The notes under the pieces: model-generated
The model's input: the letters and a program-made list of their open reading frames with translations, nothing else
The model's database searches: none
Told to the model about the DNA's origin: nothing
Source of the DNA: Halioglobus sp.
GTDB taxonomy: Bacteria > Pseudomonadota > Gammaproteobacteria > Pseudomonadales > Halieaceae
Length of the DNA: 64,000 nt
NCBI GenBank assembly: GCA_020443325.1
Contig: JAGRIK010000356.1
Span: 39,479 to 103,478 of the forward strand
Direction: 5' to 3'
In this document: piece after piece, positions 56,037-63,726 of the stretch
Layout of the letters: each line of letters starts with the position of its first letter
How positions within the stretch are numbered: the stretch's first letter is position 1
Made by a program: the position numbers and the translations under genes

Positions 56037-57116
56037 ATGCCAAGCCCCAAAACCTTTGCCCAACGCGTCCTCATATGGTTCGACCAGCACGGGCGTAAGG
56101 ACCTGCCCTGGCAGCGCGACACCAGCCCGTACCGCGTGTGGGTCTCGGAGATCATGCTGCAGCAGACCCAGGTAAAAACCGTCATTCCGTATTTTGAGCG
56201 TTTTATGGCGGCCTTCCCCGATGTGCAGGCGCTGGCACAGGCGCCCGAGGACGAAGTGCTGCATCTGTGGACCGGGCTGGGGTATTACGCGCGCGCAAGA
56301 AACCTGCACAAGGCTGCAAAGCAGGTCGCCAATGAGGGGCAGTTTCCCGATACGCTCGACGGCCTGTGCGATTTACCGGGAGTAGGGCGCTCCACTGCGG
56401 GTGCGATTCTCAGCATCGCGTTCGGGCAGCGGGCCAGTATTCTGGATGGCAACGTAAAGCGTGTGCTGGCGCGCTACCACAGGGTGGGCGGCTGGCCCGG
56501 GCAATCCGCCGTGCACCAGCAATTGTGGGAAATCGCCGAGCAACATACCCCGCAAAAACGCTGCGCCGACTACACACAGGCGATGATGGATCTGGGGGCG
56601 ACACTTTGTACACGGTCATCACCCGACTGCGGCCGCTGCCCACTGGCCGCCGACTGCGAGGCATCTGCGCACGGGGACCAGCGCAACTACCCCGGCAGGA
56701 AACCGCGCAAGGTATTGCCCGTCAAATCTACTCACTTCCTGATAGTGCGCAGCTCCGCTGATGAGATCTGGCTGGAAAAACGGCCCGCCAGCGGCATCTG
56801 GGGTGGCCTGTGGTGCTTCCCGGAGATCGACGGTCCTGACGCCGGCCGCACGCAATGTCTTGATCTCTGGGGCAATGAACCAGCCACGATGGAGGTCCGG
56901 CCGGCCTTTCGCCATACCTTCAGCCACTACCACCTCGATATCACGCCTGTAGTGGTAGAGCTCAACATCGTTCCAGTAGCAGTGATGGAAGCCGCGGGGC
57001 AGCTCTGGTATAAACTGCGCCAACCCCCACAAATCGGCCTGGCGGCCCCGGTGGCCTCATTGCTGGCACAACTGGCCGCCCCCAACTCACGAACGGCCCC
57101 AAAAACGGAGTACTAA
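56037..57116 (+). CDS. mutY: A/G-specific adenine glycosylase
   Basis: [37 protein letters not shown]6-C-X2-C-X5-C Fe-S motif. Confidence 0.98.
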
Positions 57117-57118
57117 CA

Positions 57119-57391
57119 ATGTCCCGCATGGTTAATTGCAAGAAGTACAAGAAGGAGATGGAAGGACTCGACGCGCCCCCCTATCCCGGCCCCAAGGGGC
57201 AGGAAATCTTCGAAAACGTGTCCAAACAGGCCTGGCAGGACTGGCAGGCCCACCAGACCATGCTGATCAACGAAAAACACCTGAGTCTCGTGGACCCCGA
57301 GGCCAGAAAGTACCTGCAGGGGGAAATGGACAAGTACTTCTCCGGCGAGGACTACGACAAAGCTGAGGGTTACGTCCCACCTTCTGAATAA
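57119..57391 (+). CDS. yggX: Fe(II)-trafficking / oxidative damage protection protein
   Basis: MSRMV-C-K...PYPG...SK-AW-W-QTMLINE, GYVPP; downstream of mutY. Confidence 0.95.
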
Positions 57392-57487: not shown

Positions 57488-57563
57488 GCCCGGATAGCTC
57501 AGTCGGTAGAGCAGGGGATTGAAAATCCCCGTGTCGGCAGTTCGATTCTGTCTCCGGGCACCA
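57488..57563 (+). tRNA. tRNA-Phe(GAA)
   Basis: GCCCGGATAGCTCAGTCGGTAGAGCAGGGGATTGAAAATCCCCGTGTCGGCAGTTCGATTCTGTCTCCGGGCACCA: 76 nt cloverleaf, anticodon GAA, encoded CCA. Confidence 0.99.
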
Positions 57564-57851
57564 TTTCTAAATCTGATTATTAGGCTCGGCTCTACCCCAT
57601 TATCGGGGGACGGGCATTCATGCGTACCCGATTGATGATACCGTCCCACCCGCGATGGGTCAGCGCTCTCAACCGATAATTCTCAAATTACGCCCAGCTC
57701 TCTCACGACCGCGTTCACACCAATTTCGAGACATTGTGAGATCCTTTCGAAGGCGAGTATCAATGTGGAGATCTCTACTGTTTCCTCTGGCGGAGAATAG
57801 AGGTGGTTCATTATCTTTGAACCGTGCGATATAGCCAGACAAGGAGAAGTT

Positions 57852-58433
57852 ATGGGAGATTGGGATTTTCTTTATGAAATGAACAAGCGTAGATATAGCC
57901 CTGAGGAAATTGCCGATGCAGCTTGTTCCGGTGTTGCGCCTTATCAATGGGAATCCATCAGCGACGATTGGCTTGACTCACAGTTTGACTCCCAACTTGA
58001 AGACGAGCCGGATGCTCCCTTCCAGAGTAGAGAGGGATTTCCCTTTAGCGTCCTAAAGCAAATAGAAATATTTGATGACCTTGTTGATTGCGCAGCACGC
58101 CACTTCGATAACACAGGAAGGTTTTTACAGGTCTGGGGTGAGCTCGGGGAGATTTACGCTGAAATCAAGTTCGGCCTTCGTCGCCATGAGACCCACAAAG
58201 CGGGTTCTGACGGCACAATTGCAGGCAAGTTTGTCGAAGTAAAAACCATCTCACCTGAGAAGACCAGCGATGGTGTGCTCGTCAAACGCCAAGGAGACTT
58301 TGAGCAGTTGCTAATCGTTCGTGTTGATAAAGATTTTCAGTTCCAAGGCAAGCTCTTTGACAGGAGCGAGCTAAATAGTACTACTGGAAAGTTTCTCAGG
58401 GGGCAATTCAAGGATGATTCGATAAATGCCTAA
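57852..58433 (+). CDS. Hypothetical protein with C-terminal PD-(D/E)XK nuclease-like domain (DUF6998-like)
   Basis: AAGGAG RBS; GELGEIYA...GSDG...VEVKT pattern gives an E..D..ExK core. Confidence 0.65.
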   Translation: MGDWDFLYEMNKRRYSPEEIADAACSGVAPYQWESISDDWLDSQFDSQLEDEPDAPFQSREGFPFSVLKQIEIFDDLVDCAARHFDNTGRFLQVWGELGEIYAEIKFGLRRHETHKAGSDGTIAGKFVEVKTISPEKTSDGVLVKRQGDFEQLLIVRVDKDFQFQGKLFDRSELNSTTGKFLRGQFKDDSINA

Positions 58434-58594
58434 CACTCATCGCCTGCGATCTCTTTCGGGCCCAGGCGGTCGCACTGAGGTAATAGGAGACAATAACTCC
58501 ATGATTAAAAACTGGACCGTTCTCCTATAGAGGGCGGCACCTTCACGGAATGAATATTCAGAATCTTAACTAGAACCAAGTCAAGGAGTACGTT

Positions 58595-59098
58595 TTGGAC
58601 CCAGTTTCTTATCTCTTTTCCGCATATTTGAACAGTTTTCAAACGGCTACTGCTAACCATCTTACAGAGTCAATTGGTACGGAAATCAAGGCTGTGGTCA
58701 TTGAGTACGAAGGCACAAAAATTCCGTTTCAATATCAAATGTGGCGCATAAGAGAGCCAAGCGTCTGTGCCAATTTGACTCAAAATACTGCAGATTATTC
58801 TCAATGCACAGTTAAAGCCTCAGAGCTTTTTAATAAATTATGCACCGAGATTCCGACTAAAAAGAACGCAGACTGGAAATATTCGAAAACAAAAAATATG
58901 TACTGTAACGCTGCAATGACCTATCAACCGATGATCGCCAGTATAAGTTCTGAAAGTCCGGAATCGGAGCTTCTCCAAGCGAAGAAAAAATGTAACGCAG
59001 CAACTGTTGAAGCAATGGGGAGTAGTGATCCTGCGGCTATTGGCCGTCGAGATAGAACGTGTCAAAAGTACAATGAACTCAAGTCCACGTCACTGTGA
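58595..59098 (+). CDS. Hypothetical Cys-rich protein
   Basis: 167-aa ORF, TTG start after AAGGAG, six Cys in the C-terminal two-thirds. Confidence 0.65.
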   Translation: MDPVSYLFSAYLNSFQTATANHLTESIGTEIKAVVIEYEGTKIPFQYQMWRIREPSVCANLTQNTADYSQCTVKASELFNKLCTEIPTKKNADWKYSKTKNMYCNAAMTYQPMIASISSESPESELLQAKKKCNAATVEAMGSSDPAAIGRRDRTCQKYNELKSTSL

Positions 59099-59154
59099 CG
59101 CTATTGTTCCGATATCAGCCATTCCTCACGATCATGTAGTGCTATAACGTCACA
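59095..59154. repeat. Island motif copy 1 (GTGRCRYTAT...ATRYAGTGCYATWACGTCAC)
   Basis: GTGACGCTAT...GATCATGTAGTGCTATAACGTCACA; recurs at 59265-59313 and 61773-61820. Confidence 0.75.
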
Positions 59155-59264
59155 ATAGGGAATTTGGCAAGCACCAAGGGCAAGCTTGAAGCTAGCTCCA
59201 ATAAATCGTTTTTTGCTTGTTCCAACTCTCAATAGCTCTAACAATAGTTGGGTGGTGCCTGAAT

Positions 59265-59313
59265 GTGGCATTATCTAGCGCTTCAAACAATTATGTAGTG
59301 CTATTACGTCACA
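59265..59313. repeat. Island motif copy 2
   Basis: GTGGCATTAT...ATGTAGTGCTATTACGTCACA; like copy 1 it is followed about 10 nt later by TGGCAAGCA. Confidence 0.75.
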
Positions 59314-59334
59314 TCACGAAGCTGGCAAGCATCC

Positions 59335-59405
59335 TAAGCGGCTGATATTGTAAGTGTTCCAATTTCGCCAGCCAAATTGAAAATCCCCAAGTCTGCGGTG
59401 CAACT
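59335..59405 (+). other. Degenerate att remnant 1 (IHF-like box plus tRNA-Phe anticodon/T-arm copy)
   Basis: TAAGCGGCTGATATTG at 59335; ATTGAAAATCCCC (59376-59388) is identical to the tRNA, then a partial match AAGTCTGCGGTGCAACT versus GTGTCGGCAGTTCGATT. Confidence 0.65.
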
Positions 59406-59440
59406 AGATATTCTAAGTTCATTATCCATAAATCATGAAT

Positions 59441-60808
59441 TCACAGCATCGCTTGCTCAAAAACCATTGATTCTCGACCTGTCGTTTCCTTCTTACTACA
59501 AGCGCTGAACACCGATACGGAAAGTTGTGAGGAAATAGGTGTTTTTTCGATATCTATAAGCTTGTCGATACAGCTTGTGGCCTCATGCAATGTGCTAAAT
59601 GCATTGTGGAGCTTTGATCCGTACCAGGTGGCATCGCTGAACGAGTGCTTGGCTAGCTCATGGTTCGCGTACACTAGACTACGACAATCACTCTTACGAA
59701 CTGAGCTCCCACAATTTCGAATTCCGCGCTGAAGGTTGAAGCCCCTGTAGCCCTTCGGATACTGTTCGATGTTGAAATAAATTGCAAATGAACTCCTAAT
59801 CCCCGGATCAACAAATTCTTTGAACGGATACGTGCCAATGCTCTCCGGGACTATTGAGTCGCTTTTAAGCAATACTGCTGCCTCCTCCAAATTACTATGC
59901 CATATGTGAATAGCTAACATGTAGTTTGCCAGTGCGTGCGACAACCCATTGTGGCCCGATGAGTCCAAAAAAATAAGCGGCGCAGCGCCGATTTCTTGAA
60001 ATATCTGATTGGATTTGTCCGAGGATGAGAGTGTTCTATCTAAACTCGTAAATGGTATGTGAAAAAATCTTACAAATGATAACAACCCAATAGGATCGAA
60101 ACTTTGATCGAATATCGTGTGGACAGTTCCATCTAGATTAGTATTAGATGTTAACCAGGGAGACCCTAGGTGATATAAGTGTTCAATAGAAATAAAACCA
60201 TTTTTAGCTGCAGCCTGCGCTTGGGTGCAACCATTGCTATGACAGAAAACTTCAGAGAAAGTTTGCCCAGACAGACCGGAAAACCGCTTGGCTTTGTCGG
60301 TCACTCCAAACAAGGTTTCGAAAGGTGCTCTGAAAAATTCGACCATGACACTGGAGGATCCAGGGAAAAAAAATACGGTTCCTCTCGGAAATGGCTCGCC
60401 TGTTAGTGGGTTTGTTAAGTAAGCTTTCGCTAATTCGTATTTTTTAGGATAGGCACGTTCGTCCAAATACGGTATAGCATCACCTATCCTTGCCACTCTC
60501 TGAACTTCAGCCCCTTTTACAGTTTTTCCCTTGAAGCATTTTCCTCTATCTATGTCTCTATTTTGAGGTATGGAAAGTTCCTGTAAAAATCCGCAATATG
60601 TATTACCGGTTCCCCTAAAAACGGCTACTAAATTTGTAGTCGAAGTCGGCGTGCAAAACTGATCAACTGGACATTCAGCGACCATCGGTCGAAAGGACTT
60701 GTTTGTCGCACATCCAATAAGATTGGCCAAGGCTATTACGATCAATATTTTTACAAAAAACCTAAAAGCCAAAAAAATGCGAGCATAAAAACTAGCATGA
60801 GATATCAT
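59441..60808 (-). CDS. Putative lipoprotein with alpha/beta-hydrolase (lipase-like) fold
   Basis: LIGC lipobox-like motif; VAVFRGT, FCHSNGC (GHSxG-like elbow), LYHLGSP, DPIG, HALANY in lipase class 3 order. Confidence 0.55.
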   Translation of the reverse strand: MISHASFYARIFLAFRFFVKILIVIALANLIGCATNKSFRPMVAECPVDQFCTPTSTTNLVAVFRGTGNTYCGFLQELSIPQNRDIDRGKCFKGKTVKGAEVQRVARIGDAIPYLDERAYPKKYELAKAYLTNPLTGEPFPRGTVFFFPGSSSVMVEFFRAPFETLFGVTDKAKRFSGLSGQTFSEVFCHSNGCTQAQAAAKNGFISIEHLYHLGSPWLTSNTNLDGTVHTIFDQSFDPIGLLSFVRFFHIPFTSLDRTLSSSDKSNQIFQEIGAAPLIFLDSSGHNGLSHALANYMLAIHIWHSNLEEAAVLLKSDSIVPESIGTYPFKEFVDPGIRSSFAIYFNIEQYPKGYRGFNLQRGIRNCGSSVRKSDCRSLVYANHELAKHSFSDATWYGSKLHNAFSTLHEATSCIDKLIDIEKTPISSQLSVSVFSACSKKETTGRESMVFEQAML

Positions 60809-60848
60809 TGTACTTCCCTCATAGCCTAGCTAGGGTTCTTCCTTGCGA

Positions 60849-61559
60849 TTATTCTTGCTTTTCTTCACCTATGACATCAATTTCCTGCTTTTCTCCTCCA
60901 CTGGGACTGTTTGAAAGGGGACGACAAGTTATATTTGTTGAAAGTACATTCTTGGTATCATCATCACCCTTACTGAGCGTTGCTCCGGAGTCGCAAACTA
61001 TTGTTTCTCGCTGGATACTAGCGGGGTGCTCTGCTCTAGCTTTCTCAGCCGCATAGTATGCCGATATCTCAAGTTGTAATACCGGCAATAGCTGGCTCAC
61101 CATGTTAGTCACAGATTGTTGGTATGGGATGTAGTATCCATTACTTCCATTTGAACTGTTTACCGCATCAACACATAAATAGAATGATGCGTCTCGAAAA
61201 AGCTGAACTGTATGAGATCGCTTGTAAAGTTGGTTTACGTGTCGCGCAAAATTACTCGCTATCTCGGCACTGACATCTTTTTTGGAGGATATATCTGCCG
61301 TTAGTGCTGCCGCGATGGCACTAGTAACAGAATCCACTGCTTCTGGAGGTGGCTCCGAACAAAAATTTCCCGTATTCAGGTTGGCTATGATTAGACGGCG
61401 CTGTGCCGTAACGGCTAGAGTACCGATTTCATGAGCGTGAGCCGGGTTGTCCGTAATGAGTTGATCCTCGACAACTTGCCGATTGTAAAATGCTTCAATA
61501 GTGCTAGCGCAACCACTAACTAAAATTAGAATTACCGATACAATTACAGACTTGAACAT
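60849..61559 (-). CDS. Hypothetical lipoprotein
   Basis: Signal peptide with LVSGC lipobox; FCSEPPPEA and RSHTVQLFRD-FYLC motifs; AAGGAAA RBS. Confidence 0.75.
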   Translation of the reverse strand: MFKSVIVSVILILVSGCASTIEAFYNRQVVEDQLITDNPAHAHEIGTLAVTAQRRLIIANLNTGNFCSEPPPEAVDSVTSAIAAALTADISSKKDVSAEIASNFARHVNQLYKRSHTVQLFRDASFYLCVDAVNSSNGSNGYYIPYQQSVTNMVSQLLPVLQLEISAYYAAEKARAEHPASIQRETIVCDSGATLSKGDDDTKNVLSTNITCRPLSNSPSGGEKQEIDVIGEEKQE

Positions 61560-61772
61560 GATTATTTCCTTTTTTTATTACTAATTTTTTATATCCTAGT
61601 CCTAGGTATTATAAAGTATCTACCTAACTGAGATGCGACCCTCTACTTCGATTTCTTGAGCAAAGTAAAGAAAGCAACTAATCCTAGGGATTTGTTTTCT
61701 TATCTTGGATTAAAGATAGGCCAACATGTCGATTTGTAAAGTAGTAGCACTTCAATCTACGAATCTCGATGC

Positions 61773-61820
61773 GTGACACTATCAAATCTTGTTGATGATC
61801 ATACAGTGCCATTACGTCAC
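61773..61820. repeat. Island motif copy 3
   Basis: GTGACACTAT...GATCATACAGTGCCATTACGTCAC. Confidence 0.7.
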
Positions 61821-61942
61821 CACAGAAAGCGGACTAGCATTCTGTGAATCGGGATTTACGCATTGTCGTTCTCCTTGCCTCGTTATTTATGGTCGAGAAC
61901 TCTAATTTTGCGCGGGACTAATTCAGGGGGGGGGTACTTACA

Positions 61943-62043
61943 TAAGTAACTGATATTGATGCCATTTAAAACTGACCAGCGATATGAAAAAACCCGTGTC
62001 GGCGCAGCAAAGGCTGCAGATCTTATTCTGTCTCCGGGTGCCA
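61943..62043 (+). other. Degenerate att remnant 2 (IHF-like box plus tRNA-Phe 3' half with a hairpin insertion)
   Basis: TAAGTAACTGATATTG at 61943; TGAAAAAACCCGTGTCGGC-[GCAGCAAAGGCTGC]-AGATCTT-ATTCTGTCTCCGGGTGCCA versus tRNA TGAAAATCCCCGTGTCGGC-AGTTCG-ATTCTGTCTCCGGGCACCA. Confidence 0.85.
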
Positions 62044-62221
62044 TATTTCTCTATTTACATCAATGCGTAAACATCAACCAGATGGCGCTCTACCCAGCCC
62101 GGTTTCTCATGTAAACGCGATGTAGGCGAATTTATTCTCTTATCACCGCGCAAAGAAAATTTATGCGGTCGCTCCGCGGTATTGCATCAGATAGTTGCGT
62201 TACGGTTATTGAAACTTAAAG

Positions 62222-63127
62222 CTAACGAAGAAACTTCACGACCTTAATAATAGTAGGATCCAGCTTATTCTCTGTGGAGAGGGTAAAACCGAGCTTTGTT
62301 GCCAGCTTTATCATGGGCCAGTTTTCGCGAAGTATTAGCCCTTCAAGCTGGTGTAACCCGGCGACAGTTGCCGCTGCGATTATGTAACGCAATAGTTGAC
62401 TGGCAATACCCGCTCTTTTCCAGTCGTCGGCCACCACCACCGCGAACTCTGCCACATGTTTCTTCAGCGTCGGAGTGTACCTTGCGACCCCAATTTGCCG
62501 CTCGCCTTCGGGCGCTGGAATTGTGGCGATCAGTGCGTAGCTGATTGGAAAATCAGTATGGGTAAGCTGCCGAAGCAGATATTCTGGCAGCTCCCGCAGC
62601 CCTGAGAAAAAGCGTAAGTATCTCGATCGCTCCGATAGCGTTTTGACGAACTGCTGCTCGATCTCCGCGTCATCCGGACCAATCATCCTTATCGTGACCA
62701 ATGTACCATCGGGCGCATTCATCGTTGATGGCTCAATTACAGGAAGATTCTGCGCGCCGGGAAAGATAGCGGACAGACGCGTGAAGACATAAGCATCTAT
62801 CATCGATTTACTGACAATGTCTGTGACGCCCAAATCGACATACTGCCTGCGCAAATTATCGTCGGGTGTATTGCACAATACGATGACAGGTAACGCCGGT
62901 CTGGCGTCGAGAATTGTCCGTACTTGTCTTAACCCATCCTGGCACCCAGTACTCAATGTAAGTAACAGGCAGCTTTGCGACTCCCGATCATTGCTGGTGT
63001 TTGATAGAAAAAACTCCGGTGTCGTGAAGCTCTCAACTTCAATTTCATAGTTATCAAGCAATGATTGCAGAGCCTTTCCCAGCTTCCCATCACCATCAAT
63101 TATGTAGACAACTGTGTTGGCAGTCAT
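62222..63127 (-). CDS. Receiver-like domain fused to a GNAT acetyltransferase (Pat/PatZ-type GNAT domain)
   Basis: VYIIDGD...SCLLLTL...LPVIVL...IVSK receiver pattern; DGT-V-IR-I-P-D, LS-RSRY-RFF, GVARY, AEFAVVVAD-W-GIA, EN-M-KL-KLGF; probable ATG at 63127 (ORF track gives 63163). Confidence 0.82.
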   Translation of the reverse strand: MTANTVVYIIDGDGKLGKALQSLLDNYEIEVESFTTPEFFLSNTSNDRESQSCLLLTLSTGCQDGLRQVRTILDARPALPVIVLCNTPDDNLRRQYVDLGVTDIVSKSMIDAYVFTRLSAIFPGAQNLPVIEPSTMNAPDGTLVTIRMIGPDDAEIEQQFVKTLSERSRYLRFFSGLRELPEYLLRQLTHTDFPISYALIATIPAPEGERQIGVARYTPTLKKHVAEFAVVVADDWKRAGIASQLLRYIIAAATVAGLHQLEGLILRENWPMIKLATKLGFTLSTENKLDPTIIKVVKFLR

Positions 63128-63264
63128 TTCAGTGATGGCGCCTCGCGTAGTGATACGCCCCAATACCTTTCAAGAGCGATACGTCAGTTCATGGTAAGCT
63201 CAACTCAGCCTAGTCGCTTGCGGTCGGTTTTACTAGAATCTATCTGTATCACAGGGAAAATGAG

Positions 63265-63726
63265 ATGATTGAACTGACGAAGATATTCATGGCATATGCC
63301 GAGGCATTTGAGCAAACCTATATCGATGATGACTGGACACGACTTCAATCCTATTTTGCGGAGGATGCCACTTATGAAGTAAGGGGCGGCCCACTAGCCT
63401 GCAAATTGGAGGGGCGTGATGCGATATTGAAAGGTCTCAAGCGATCAGTTGACACTCTGGACAGACGCTGCGATGACCGCAAGATCGACGTCACCAGCGC
63501 ACCCGAGTTCAGCTCCGTTGACGAGGGCGACCAACTCAGTATTGATTGGTATGTAAGCTATCAGTACAAGGATGCTCCGCGCGCCGGATTCCCCGGTCGA
63601 TCGGTGGCCACAGTGGCCGACGGTGTAATCATCGCCCTGCGCGATGAATACAGTGACGAGAAAATGAAGCCGTTTATCGACTGGATGGCGCAGTATGGTA
63701 ACGATCTGGATGGGGCTTATGTCTGA
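63265..63726 (+). CDS. NTF2/SnoaL-like domain protein
   Basis: F-AYAEAF...DW-L-YFAEDATY...GRDAI...DG-I-LRD pattern. Confidence 0.75.
   Translation: MIELTKIFMAYAEAFEQTYIDDDWTRLQSYFAEDATYEVRGGPLACKLEGRDAILKGLKRSVDTLDRRCDDRKIDVTSAPEFSSVDEGDQLSIDWYVSYQYKDAPRAGFPGRSVATVADGVIIALRDEYSDEKMKPFIDWMAQYGNDLDGAYV

What the first reader, a model, noticed from the sequence alone, without database searches (positions are those of the whole stretch)
57488..62043. Integrase-less stack of att-bounded cargo cassettes at tRNA-Phe
Seen: two degenerate copies of the tRNA-Phe 3' half (59376 onward and 61985-62043). Each is preceded by TAAGNNNCTGATATTG starting 43 and 42 bp before the TGAAAA, and by CCAGC just before it. 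They split the AT-rich region into cassette A (nuclease-like gene plus Cys-rich gene) and cassette B (lipoprotein pair), of roughly 1.8 and 2.6 kb. No tyrosine recombinase is recognisable in either. Known: tyrosine integrases duplicate tRNA 3' ends and use IHF sites (YAANNNNTTGATW, one mismatch here). Inference: related elements integrated repeatedly and were either reduced by deletion, or are non-autonomous mini-cassettes mobilised in trans, making the tRNA an integron-like gene-accretion platform. This is the best candidate in the window for an undescribed system.
Basis: partly seen in the sequence, partly recalled or inferred. Interest (0 to 1): 0.78.

Follow-up and report, generated by a model that had tools for sequence, protein, structure and literature searches.

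The report
Integrase-less island remnants stacked at tRNA-Phe
Two small foreign gene packages sit one behind the other after the tRNA-Phe gene of a marine Halioglobus bacterium, each ending in the right-hand attachment site of a mobile element whose integrase-carrying relatives I found in sister genomes; this is a clear example of a known way genomes grow, not a new system.

Summary
tRNA-Phe (57488-57563) is followed by two low-GC units. Each ends in a roughly 120-nt conserved "arm" plus a degenerate copy of the tRNA from the anticodon loop to CCA (59262-59423, and 61769-62044 split by a 98-nt insert). A third half-arm lies at 59104-59175.

The same arm-plus-core block occurs downstream of tRNA-Phe in 9 other Halieaceae species genomes, in four genera, and on 2 further metagenome contigs, each with different cargo. 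In G124 the block is the right end of an intact 5.8-kb element: tRNA-Phe, tyrosine integrase, excisionase-like HTH_17, two conserved genes, about 1.7 kb of variable cargo, block, displaced tRNA half. G015 and G122 look the same across contig breaks.

The window's units carry only cargo plus block. They hold no integrase or excisionase remnant, the assembly has no cognate integrase, and their cores are damaged. They are best read as decayed, CIME-like remnants accreted in tandem. This equals the published "tandem accretion" and "additive flexible genomic island" pattern, and this scan has noted the same pattern at tRNA-Phe in other phyla.

The integron analogy fails its defining tests. Trans-mobilisation of the cassettes remains possible (about 0.15).

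The parts
57488..57563 (+). tRNA-Phe(GAA), the integration target. The segment repeated downstream runs from the anticodon loop to CCA (57518-57566).
   Evidence: ARAGORN; Rfam tRNA 68.7 bits; nhmmer core positions 119-167
57564..59103 (+). Unit A cargo, GC 40-48%. It holds a REP-like repeat (57587-57691), a DUF6998 PD-(D/E)XK-like protein (57852-58433, P0001) and a Cys-rich 167-aa protein (58595-59098, P0002).
59104..59175 (+). Extra copy of the left half of the arm (inverted repeat TGTGRCGT/ACGTCRCA around ATGTRGTGC repeats), with no core attached.
   Evidence: nhmmer model positions 6-76, E 8.6e-06; family D1
59262..59377 (+). Block A arm, the conserved right (P-type) arm of the element family, including the IHF-like TAAGCGGCTGATATTG at 59335-59350.
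59378..59423 (+). Core A, a degenerate displaced tRNA-Phe 3' part. The anticodon loop and 3' stem are intact (TTGAAAATCCCC). The T arm and acceptor part are only about 50-60% like the tRNA.
59441..61559 (-). Unit B cargo: two lipoprotein genes, 59441-60808 (P0003, 455 aa) and 60849-61559 (P0004, 236 aa). P0003 is nearly an orphan, with one 40%-identical relative among 5.8 billion proteins.
61769..61843 (+). Block B arm, left half.
   Evidence: nhmmer positions 4-78, E 2.7e-06; alignment
61844..61940 (+). Unique insert of about 98 nt that splits the block B arm. It has no other copy in the genome.
61941..62044 (+). Block B arm right half (TAAGTAACTGATATTG at 61943-61958) plus core B. Core B has 3 mismatches in the anticodon loop and stem and a 15-nt hairpin insert (GCAGCAAAGGCTGCA) in the T arm. 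The same insert occurs in the distal cores of G007, G047 and G052.

Best explanation
The region is a tandem array of two decayed members of a Halieaceae-specific family of small integrative elements that target the tRNA-Phe gene from the anticodon loop to the 3' end.

An intact member is about 5.8 kb. It has, next to the tRNA, a tyrosine integrase transcribed towards the tRNA, an excisionase-like HTH_17 gene and two conserved genes of unknown function. A 1.7-2.6 kb exchangeable cargo segment follows, then a conserved right end whose last 120 nt (the 'block') abut the displaced tRNA half.

Shown: the block, its position, its family, its link to the integrase, and the absence of recombination genes in the window.

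Inferred: each window unit arose by site-specific integration of such an element, and the integrase-proximal module was later lost. This left cargo + arm + displaced tRNA half, that is attR plus cargo, a CIME-like remnant. A second family member then integrated and gave the stack.

The two units come from separate events, not a local duplication. Their blocks are 55% identical to each other but 75% (A to G007) and 69% (B to G052) identical to blocks of other species.

Both att cores are now damaged and no cognate integrase is in the assembly. The array is therefore most likely fixed, and its present role is simply to supply accessory genes: a nuclease-like protein, a Cys-rich protein and two lipoproteins.
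For: (1) Block plus core copies in the window, and only at this locus in the genome.
(2) The same block lies downstream of mutY-yggX-tRNA-Phe in G002 (twice), G007, G015, G047 and G052. It also lies downstream of tRNA-Phe on a TARA contig and in G124 and G204; in G122 and G136 no tRNA-Phe lay in the stretch fetched. Nothing but the block and the tRNA locus is shared with the window.
(3) G124 holds a contiguous element: tRNA-Phe, integrase about 100 nt downstream, HTH_17/excisionase-like gene, p436, p256, cargo, block, core. G015 and G122 look the same across contig breaks. G023 has the integrase, HTH_17 gene and p436 next to tRNA-Phe.
(4) Integrases 45-47% identical sit next to tRNA-Arg in the two genomes checked, G004 and G047, so the clade of 83% identity or more is the tRNA-Phe-specific one.
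(5) G124 and G122 are 96% identical in the left module and 87% in the last 473 nt, but differ completely in the 1.7 versus 2.6 kb between them. That is the size and position of what the window units keep.
(6) No integrase, HTH_17, p436 or p256 remnant is found in the window units, and no cognate integrase in the genome.
(7) Seven of 10 block-bearing genomes lack the cognate integrase.
(8) Unit GC is 40-48% against 58% for the genome.
(9) The pairwise block identities argue for independent events.
Against: No remnant of the lost left module is visible in any of the roughly ten integrase-less units, and their ORFs look whole. Random decay would be expected to leave some fragments.

The units are uniformly small (about 1.0-2.6 kb, one or two genes). 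Some of them (TARA, G002) also carry a conserved segment of about 80-95 nt after the upstream core. This fits units that are born small.

The block search finds only units that kept the block, so the excess of integrase-less units is partly ascertainment. The MAG is 90% complete, so an integrase on a missing contig cannot be excluded.
Confidence: 0.75

Rival explanations
1. The units are genuine non-autonomous mini-cassettes (cargo + 120-nt arm + core). The Int/Xis of an incoming autonomous family member excises, circularises and integrates them in trans, so the tRNA-Phe locus works as a cassette-accretion platform across Halieaceae.
For: About ten integrase-less units of 1.0-2.6 kb with one or two intact genes occur in G000, G002, G007, G047, G052, G204 and the TARA contig. 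None carries a module remnant. The arm is conserved at 72-85% across four genera while everything else differs. G002 has two units with undamaged cores. The TARA unit has a conserved post-core segment at both ends.
Against: In the window, core A has lost the T arm and acceptor part. Core B has 3 mismatches in the loop and stem that should hold the crossover, plus a 98-nt insert between its arm sites and its core. Left ends are not conserved among units in general, and no arm-type motif recurs there. No cognate integrase is present in 7 of 10 block-bearing genomes. The exchangeable-cargo structure of the intact elements explains the unit sizes without a cassette mechanism.
Confidence: 0.15
2. 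The conserved block is not a recombination site but a structured RNA or regulatory element linked to tRNA-Phe. The repeats would then reflect its duplication.
For: The block has a conserved 8-bp inverted repeat and a second small stem. It is more conserved than the neighbouring DNA.
Against: No Rfam family matches apart from the tRNA itself. RNAalifold gives a positive (unfavourable) covariation term, and only 2 of 32 pairs show compensatory change. The block always abuts a copy of the tRNA 3' part and bounds foreign DNA, and in G124 it is the far end of an integrase-bearing element.
Confidence: 0.04
3. The repeats are a local duplication or a chance resemblance within one ordinary island.
For: Both units lie in one continuous low-GC stretch.
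Against: Blocks A and B are 55% identical to each other, yet each is closer to blocks of other species. The motif occurs twice against none in any of 100 shuffles. The nhmmer and BLAST E-values are far below chance.
Confidence: 0.02

Closest known systems
Cis-mobilizable elements (CIMEs) and tandem accretion at att sites of ICEs/IMEs (Pavlovic 2004 and Bellanger 2011, as reviewed in PMC5704250)
   Same: The element has lost its integration genes but keeps att junctions. It sits in tandem with another element at the 3' end of a target gene. The three-step history of integration, decay and further integration matches what is seen here.
   Different: The parent here is a small (about 5.8 kb) integrase-excisionase element of marine Gammaproteobacteria with no recognised conjugation or mobilisation genes, not a streptococcal ICE. 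The window's att cores are damaged, and no cis-mobilisation has been shown.
Additive flexible genomic islands at tRNA genes of marine bacteria (Alteromonas fGI1; PMC4119200)
   Same: A conserved tRNA in a conserved genomic context serves as the insertion target for gene cassettes. Island length and content differ between relatives, and direct repeats of the tRNA 3' end mark the insertions.
   Different: The Alteromonas cassettes are large (metal resistance, hydrogenase; up to 110 kb). Here the units are 1-2.6 kb and share a defined 120-nt arm, and the comparison is between species, not strains.
tRNA-targeting tyrosine-integrase genomic islands and P4-like int-alpA elements (general knowledge; sublocation classes of Williams 2002, cited from memory)
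   Same: The identity segment runs from the anticodon loop to the tRNA 3' end. The integrase lies next to the tRNA and an AlpA/excisionase-type HTH_17 gene lies beside it in intact members. The arm carries direct and inverted repeats and an IHF-like site.
   Different: The integrase is short (343 aa) and has no DUF4102 arm-binding domain hit. No integrase is present in the window.
Integrons, and CALINs (clusters of attC sites lacking an integrase)
   Same: An array of short cargo units, each ending in a conserved recombination-site-like element, without a local integrase.
   Different: There is no IntI-type integrase, no attC architecture and no common cassette orientation. The repeated site is a tRNA-derived core with a lambda-type arm.

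Membership tests
tRNA-targeting tyrosine-integrase integrative element (genomic island) | Direct repeat of the tRNA 3' segment at the distal boundary of the inserted DNA | tested here: met
   Copies at 59378-59423 and 61985-62044
tRNA-targeting tyrosine-integrase integrative element (genomic island) | Tyrosine integrase gene inside the element, next to the tRNA | tested here: not met
   None in the window units. It is present in the relatives G124, G015 and G023 about 100 nt from tRNA-Phe.
tRNA-targeting tyrosine-integrase integrative element (genomic island) | Foreign composition and variable presence among relatives | tested here: met
   GC 40-48% against 58%. The content downstream of tRNA-Phe differs in every relative examined.
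CIME (cis-mobilizable element) | [quoted passage not shown] | tested here: met
   No integrase, HTH_17, p436 or p256 signal
CIME (cis-mobilizable element) | Retains attL and attR sites | tested here: inconclusive
   The right arm and core are recognisable for both units. However, core A lacks the T arm and acceptor part, core B has 3 mismatches in the loop and stem with its arm split by 98 nt, and no conserved left arm was found.
CIME (cis-mobilizable element) | Derived from, or related to, an autonomous element that uses the same att site | tested here: met
   Block homology to the right end of the integrase-bearing G124, G122 and G015 elements
CIME (cis-mobilizable element) | Excises and transfers together with an accreted functional element | not testable with these tools
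Integron | IntI-type integrase next to attI | tested here: not met
   No recombinase at the locus. The family's integrase scores 27 and 18 bits against integron-integrase models whose cut-offs are 265 and 435.
Integron | Cassettes end in attC sites (imperfect palindromes with R''-L''/L'-R' boxes) | tested here: not met
   The repeated unit is a tRNA-derived core plus an arm with direct ATGTRGTGC repeats. It shows no attC-like overall palindrome.
Integron | Co-oriented, mostly promoterless single-ORF cassettes | tested here: not met
   Unit A genes are on the + strand and unit B genes on the - strand, two genes each
Additive flexible genomic island at a tRNA (PMC4119200) | Same tRNA in the same genomic context is used as the insertion target across relatives | tested here: met
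   mutY-yggX-tRNA-Phe is conserved in the genus. Many contigs break at the tRNA, and downstream content is variable.
Additive flexible genomic island at a tRNA (PMC4119200) | Strains differ by presence or absence of cassettes | tested here: inconclusive
   Shown between species and between two co-binned G007 variants. Strain-level data for this population are not available. One other assembly of the same population has the same A/B junction.

The most novel reading that the evidence does not exclude
Halieaceae carry a two-tier system at tRNA-Phe: a rare autonomous Int-Xis helper element, and commoner one- or two-gene cassettes consisting only of cargo plus the 120-nt arm and core. The helper would move these cassettes in trans, making the tRNA locus an integron-like cassette platform built on a lambda-type tyrosine integrase. 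The insertions at one T-arm position of the displaced tRNA halves (15 nt in Halioglobus, about 45 nt in G204) could be a recurrent way of locking the array, because restoring the tRNA by excision or by homologous recombination would then be impossible or lethal.
Probability: 0.15. Interest if true: 0.7.

Novelty: new member of a known kind. Interest (0 to 1): 0.35.

Why it matters
The analysis defines a previously uncharted integrative-element family of Halieaceae (the marine OM60/NOR5 relatives): its target, its 120-nt arm, its integrase-excisionase module and its exchangeable cargo slot. It shows that most copies in genomes are integrase-less remnants stacked at one tRNA.

That is useful for annotating flexible islands in marine MAGs, and as a natural series for asking how att-bounded remnants persist. 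It does not reveal a new recombination mechanism. The same pattern is published (CIMEs, additive flexible islands), and this scan has already noted it at tRNA-Phe in at least 16 other genomes of diverse phyla.

Tried and rejected
- The first genome contigs pattern had one N too many and found nothing. It was corrected after a check on the loci in hand.
- Viral contigs hold no copy of the block, so there is no sign of a phage origin.
- Conserved left (P') arm: short-word BLAST and motif scans gave nothing consistent. A post-core segment of about 80-95 nt recurs in G052, TARA, G002 and, in native position, in G018, but it is absent from the window genome. It may simply be the native tRNA downstream flank.
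- RNA-element reading: only the tRNA matches Rfam and there is no covariation.
- Function of the cargo: PADLOC and NCBIfam gave nothing; PHROGs gave only one family of unknown function, for P0002. P0001 falls just under the DUF6998 cut-off (26.1 against 27 bits).
- P0003 homologues: only two exist. One lies on a chimeric ENA contig whose first 364 nt are unrelated AT-rich DNA. The other lies on a 1.9-kb contig with no block.
- Local duplication was rejected on the block identities.
Full report
**Where the window lies.** The window is G000:C295:39479-103478 of a 4.7-Mb MAG with 365 contigs, 90% completeness and 58% GC. Record titles of the closest genomes name the genus Halioglobus.

**The observation.** tRNA-Phe(GAA) lies at 57488-57563, directly after mutY (56037-57116) and yggX (57119-57391). 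Downstream, GC falls from about 62% to 40-48% until about 62000.
- Repeat searches recover the tRNA's anticodon-loop-to-variable-loop segment at 59367-59396 and 61974-62003, and its acceptor end at 62025-62044.
No match appeared in any of 100 shuffles. The stated offsets (43 and 42 nt) and the CCAGC are correct.
- A profile of the unit shows it is about 168 nt long: a 120-nt arm followed by the tRNA from the anticodon loop to CCA.
- The profile hits 59262-59423 in full. It hits 61769-61843 plus 61941-62044 as a copy split by about 98 nt of unique DNA. It also hits an extra copy of the left half of the arm at 59104-59175. It hits nowhere else in the genome except the tRNA itself.

**What the block is.** The mutY-yggX-tRNA-Phe arrangement is conserved across the genus. 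In many assemblies the contig ends at the tRNA, the signature of a repeated core. Sequence downstream of the tRNA differs in every relative examined.
- The arm occurs in 6 of 48 Halioglobus species genomes and in 4 genomes of three other genera of the family, 10 of 306 in all. It also occurs on two further metagenome contigs.
- An exact-pattern scan of 185,579 species genomes found it only in Halioglobus MAGs, and viral contigs hold none.
- Wherever the upstream DNA was assembled and fetched, the block lies downstream of tRNA-Phe and is followed by the tRNA-derived core.
- Apart from the block and the tRNA locus, nothing is shared between the window and these loci at DNA or protein level.

**The intact element.** In G124 a contiguous 5.8-kb element runs as follows:
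- tRNA-Phe;
- about 100 nt downstream, a 343-aa tyrosine integrase transcribed towards the tRNA;
- a 109-aa HTH_17 protein that matches phage excisionase families;
- two conserved proteins of unknown function (436 and 256 aa);
- three small cargo genes;
- the block and the displaced tRNA half.

G122 carries the same element with an identical integrase on a neighbouring contig. G015 has an 85%-identical integrase and the block 5.4 kb away across a contig break at the core, with IS debris in between. G023 has the integrase, the HTH_17 gene and p436 beside tRNA-Phe.

Integrases 45-47% identical sit beside tRNA-Arg in the two genomes checked, G004 and G047, and a 34% relative sits beside tRNA-Met. 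The clade of 83% identity or more is therefore the tRNA-Phe-specific one.

G124 and G122 are 96% identical through the left module and 87% identical over the last 473 nt. They differ completely in the 1.7 versus 2.6 kb between these parts. The family thus has a fixed recombination module, an exchangeable cargo slot and a fixed right end.

**What the window has.**
- Unit A (57564-59423) carries a REP-like repeat, a DUF6998 PD-(D/E)XK-like protein and a Cys-rich protein.
- Unit B (59424-62044) carries two lipoproteins.
- Neither unit holds any trace of the integrase, HTH_17, p436 or p256.
- The best integrase match in the whole assembly is XerC/D-level, at 25-28% identity.
- Blocks A and B are 55% identical to each other. 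A is 75% identical to the G007 block and B is 69% identical to the G052 block, so two different family members arrived independently.
- Both cores are damaged. Core A keeps TTGAAAATCCCC but has diverged in the T arm and acceptor part.
- Core B has three mismatches in the loop and stem and a 15-nt hairpin insert in the T arm, and its arm is split by about 98 nt.

**Mechanism.**
- Shown: att-type junctions of a defined element family, the link of the block to an integrase-excisionase module, the absence of that module here, and independent origin of the two units.
- Inferred: integration by crossover in or near the anticodon loop, because identity with the tRNA starts there.
- Inferred: loss of the integrase-proximal module, and integration of a second family member. 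The order of the two events cannot be decided.
- The result is cargo + arm + displaced half, twice. This matches the three-step history described for CIMEs and tandem accretion (PMC5704250).
- It also matches the additive flexible genomic islands of marine bacteria, in which a conserved tRNA is the target for gene cassettes (PMC4119200).

**The more novel alternative.** The integrase-less units are numerous: about ten across G000, G002, G007, G047, G052, G204 and the TARA contig. They are small (about 1.0-2.6 kb), hold one or two apparently whole genes and show no module debris. Seven of 10 block-bearing genomes lack the cognate integrase. That regularity would also fit cassettes mobilised in trans.

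Against this reading:
- Units have no generally conserved left arm.
- The window's cores are damaged.
- Searching by the block can only find units that kept it.
- The cargo-slot structure of the intact elements already predicts the unit sizes.

I put this reading at about 0.15.

**Integron comparison.** There is no IntI-type integrase; the family's integrase scores far below the integron-integrase cut-offs. There is no attC architecture. The units have opposite gene orientations. The resemblance is functional at most: accretion of cargo at one site.

**An unexplained detail.** The distal displaced halves of G000 (block B), G007, G047 and G052 share a 15-nt insert at one position of the T arm. 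Both displaced halves of G204, in another genus, carry a different insert of about 45 nt at the same position, while otherwise matching that host's own tRNA variant. Such inserts break the 46-nt direct repeat and would make tRNA restoration by excision impossible. They may stabilise the arrays. This is conjecture.

**Verdict.** This scan has reported the same pattern at tRNA-Phe in at least 16 other genomes. The locus is a well-documented new member of a known kind.

Noticed in passing
window 57587-57691: A REP-like hairpin repeat of about 105 nt lies directly after tRNA-Phe, with a GGGGGACGG...CCGTCCC stem. It has a 96%-identical copy on contig C32 and a 76% copy on C14, and it resembles the GGGAC/GTCCC intergenic elements noted elsewhere in this window.
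   Followed up: partly
window 61994-62010; L066:2150-2170; L112 (G204), both cores: The displaced tRNA halves carry insertions at the same T-arm position: 15 nt in four Halioglobus species and about 45 nt in both copies of a genome from another genus. The two insert sequences differ, so they arose independently. Possibly they lock or stabilise the array.
   Followed up: partly
L066:292-437; L068 (G052) three copies; L069:389-538; L065:2505-2649: A conserved element of about 140 nt with a GGCCCCCGAAAGGGCC terminator-like hairpin recurs near the left ends of cassettes in G007, G052 and G015. It is absent from the window genome. It could be a small RNA gene or a MITE.
   Followed up: partly
window 62222-63726 and onward to C295 about 106400: GC stays at 46-55% beyond the last core. 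This stretch holds a pseudo-receiver-GNAT fusion, a SnoaL-like protein, a 190-aa orphan and a MASE1-CHASE histidine kinase. None is shared with relatives at this locus and no further att copy was found, so it may be an older island whose boundary has been lost.
   Followed up: partly
L052 (G009) after tRNA-Phe: Short tandem units of about 68 nt, each ending in a copy of the tRNA acceptor end (ATTCTGTCTCTGGGCACCA), follow tRNA-Phe directly. This looks like a miniature att-scar array without cargo.
   Followed up: no
L054 (G026, another family of the order): Two tandem 7.4-kb elements with identical left ends lie at tRNA-Phe. Each has an integrase 61% identical to the G124 integrase but on the opposite strand relative to the tRNA.
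   Followed up: no
L066 and L067 (G007 contigs C175 and C213): Two contigs both start with the same tRNA-Phe and converge on the same right flank (93% identical). One carries an SDR cassette plus the block. The other carries Fic and sulfatase genes. These are co-binned variants with different content at this locus.
   Followed up: partly
L115 (ENA contig, 1652 nt): Nucleotides 365-1652 are 100% identical to window 58920-60207, so this second assembly of the same population has the same A/B junction. The first 364 nt are unrelated, very AT-rich DNA, so the contig is probably a chimeric assembly.
   Followed up: yes
G000:C295:10797-12977 (outside the window): A 469-aa tyrosine integrase with a weak, below-cut-off HTH_17 match (24.5 bits against 27) beside it lies 84 kb upstream on the same contig. 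It is unrelated to the tRNA-Phe family integrase.
   Followed up: no
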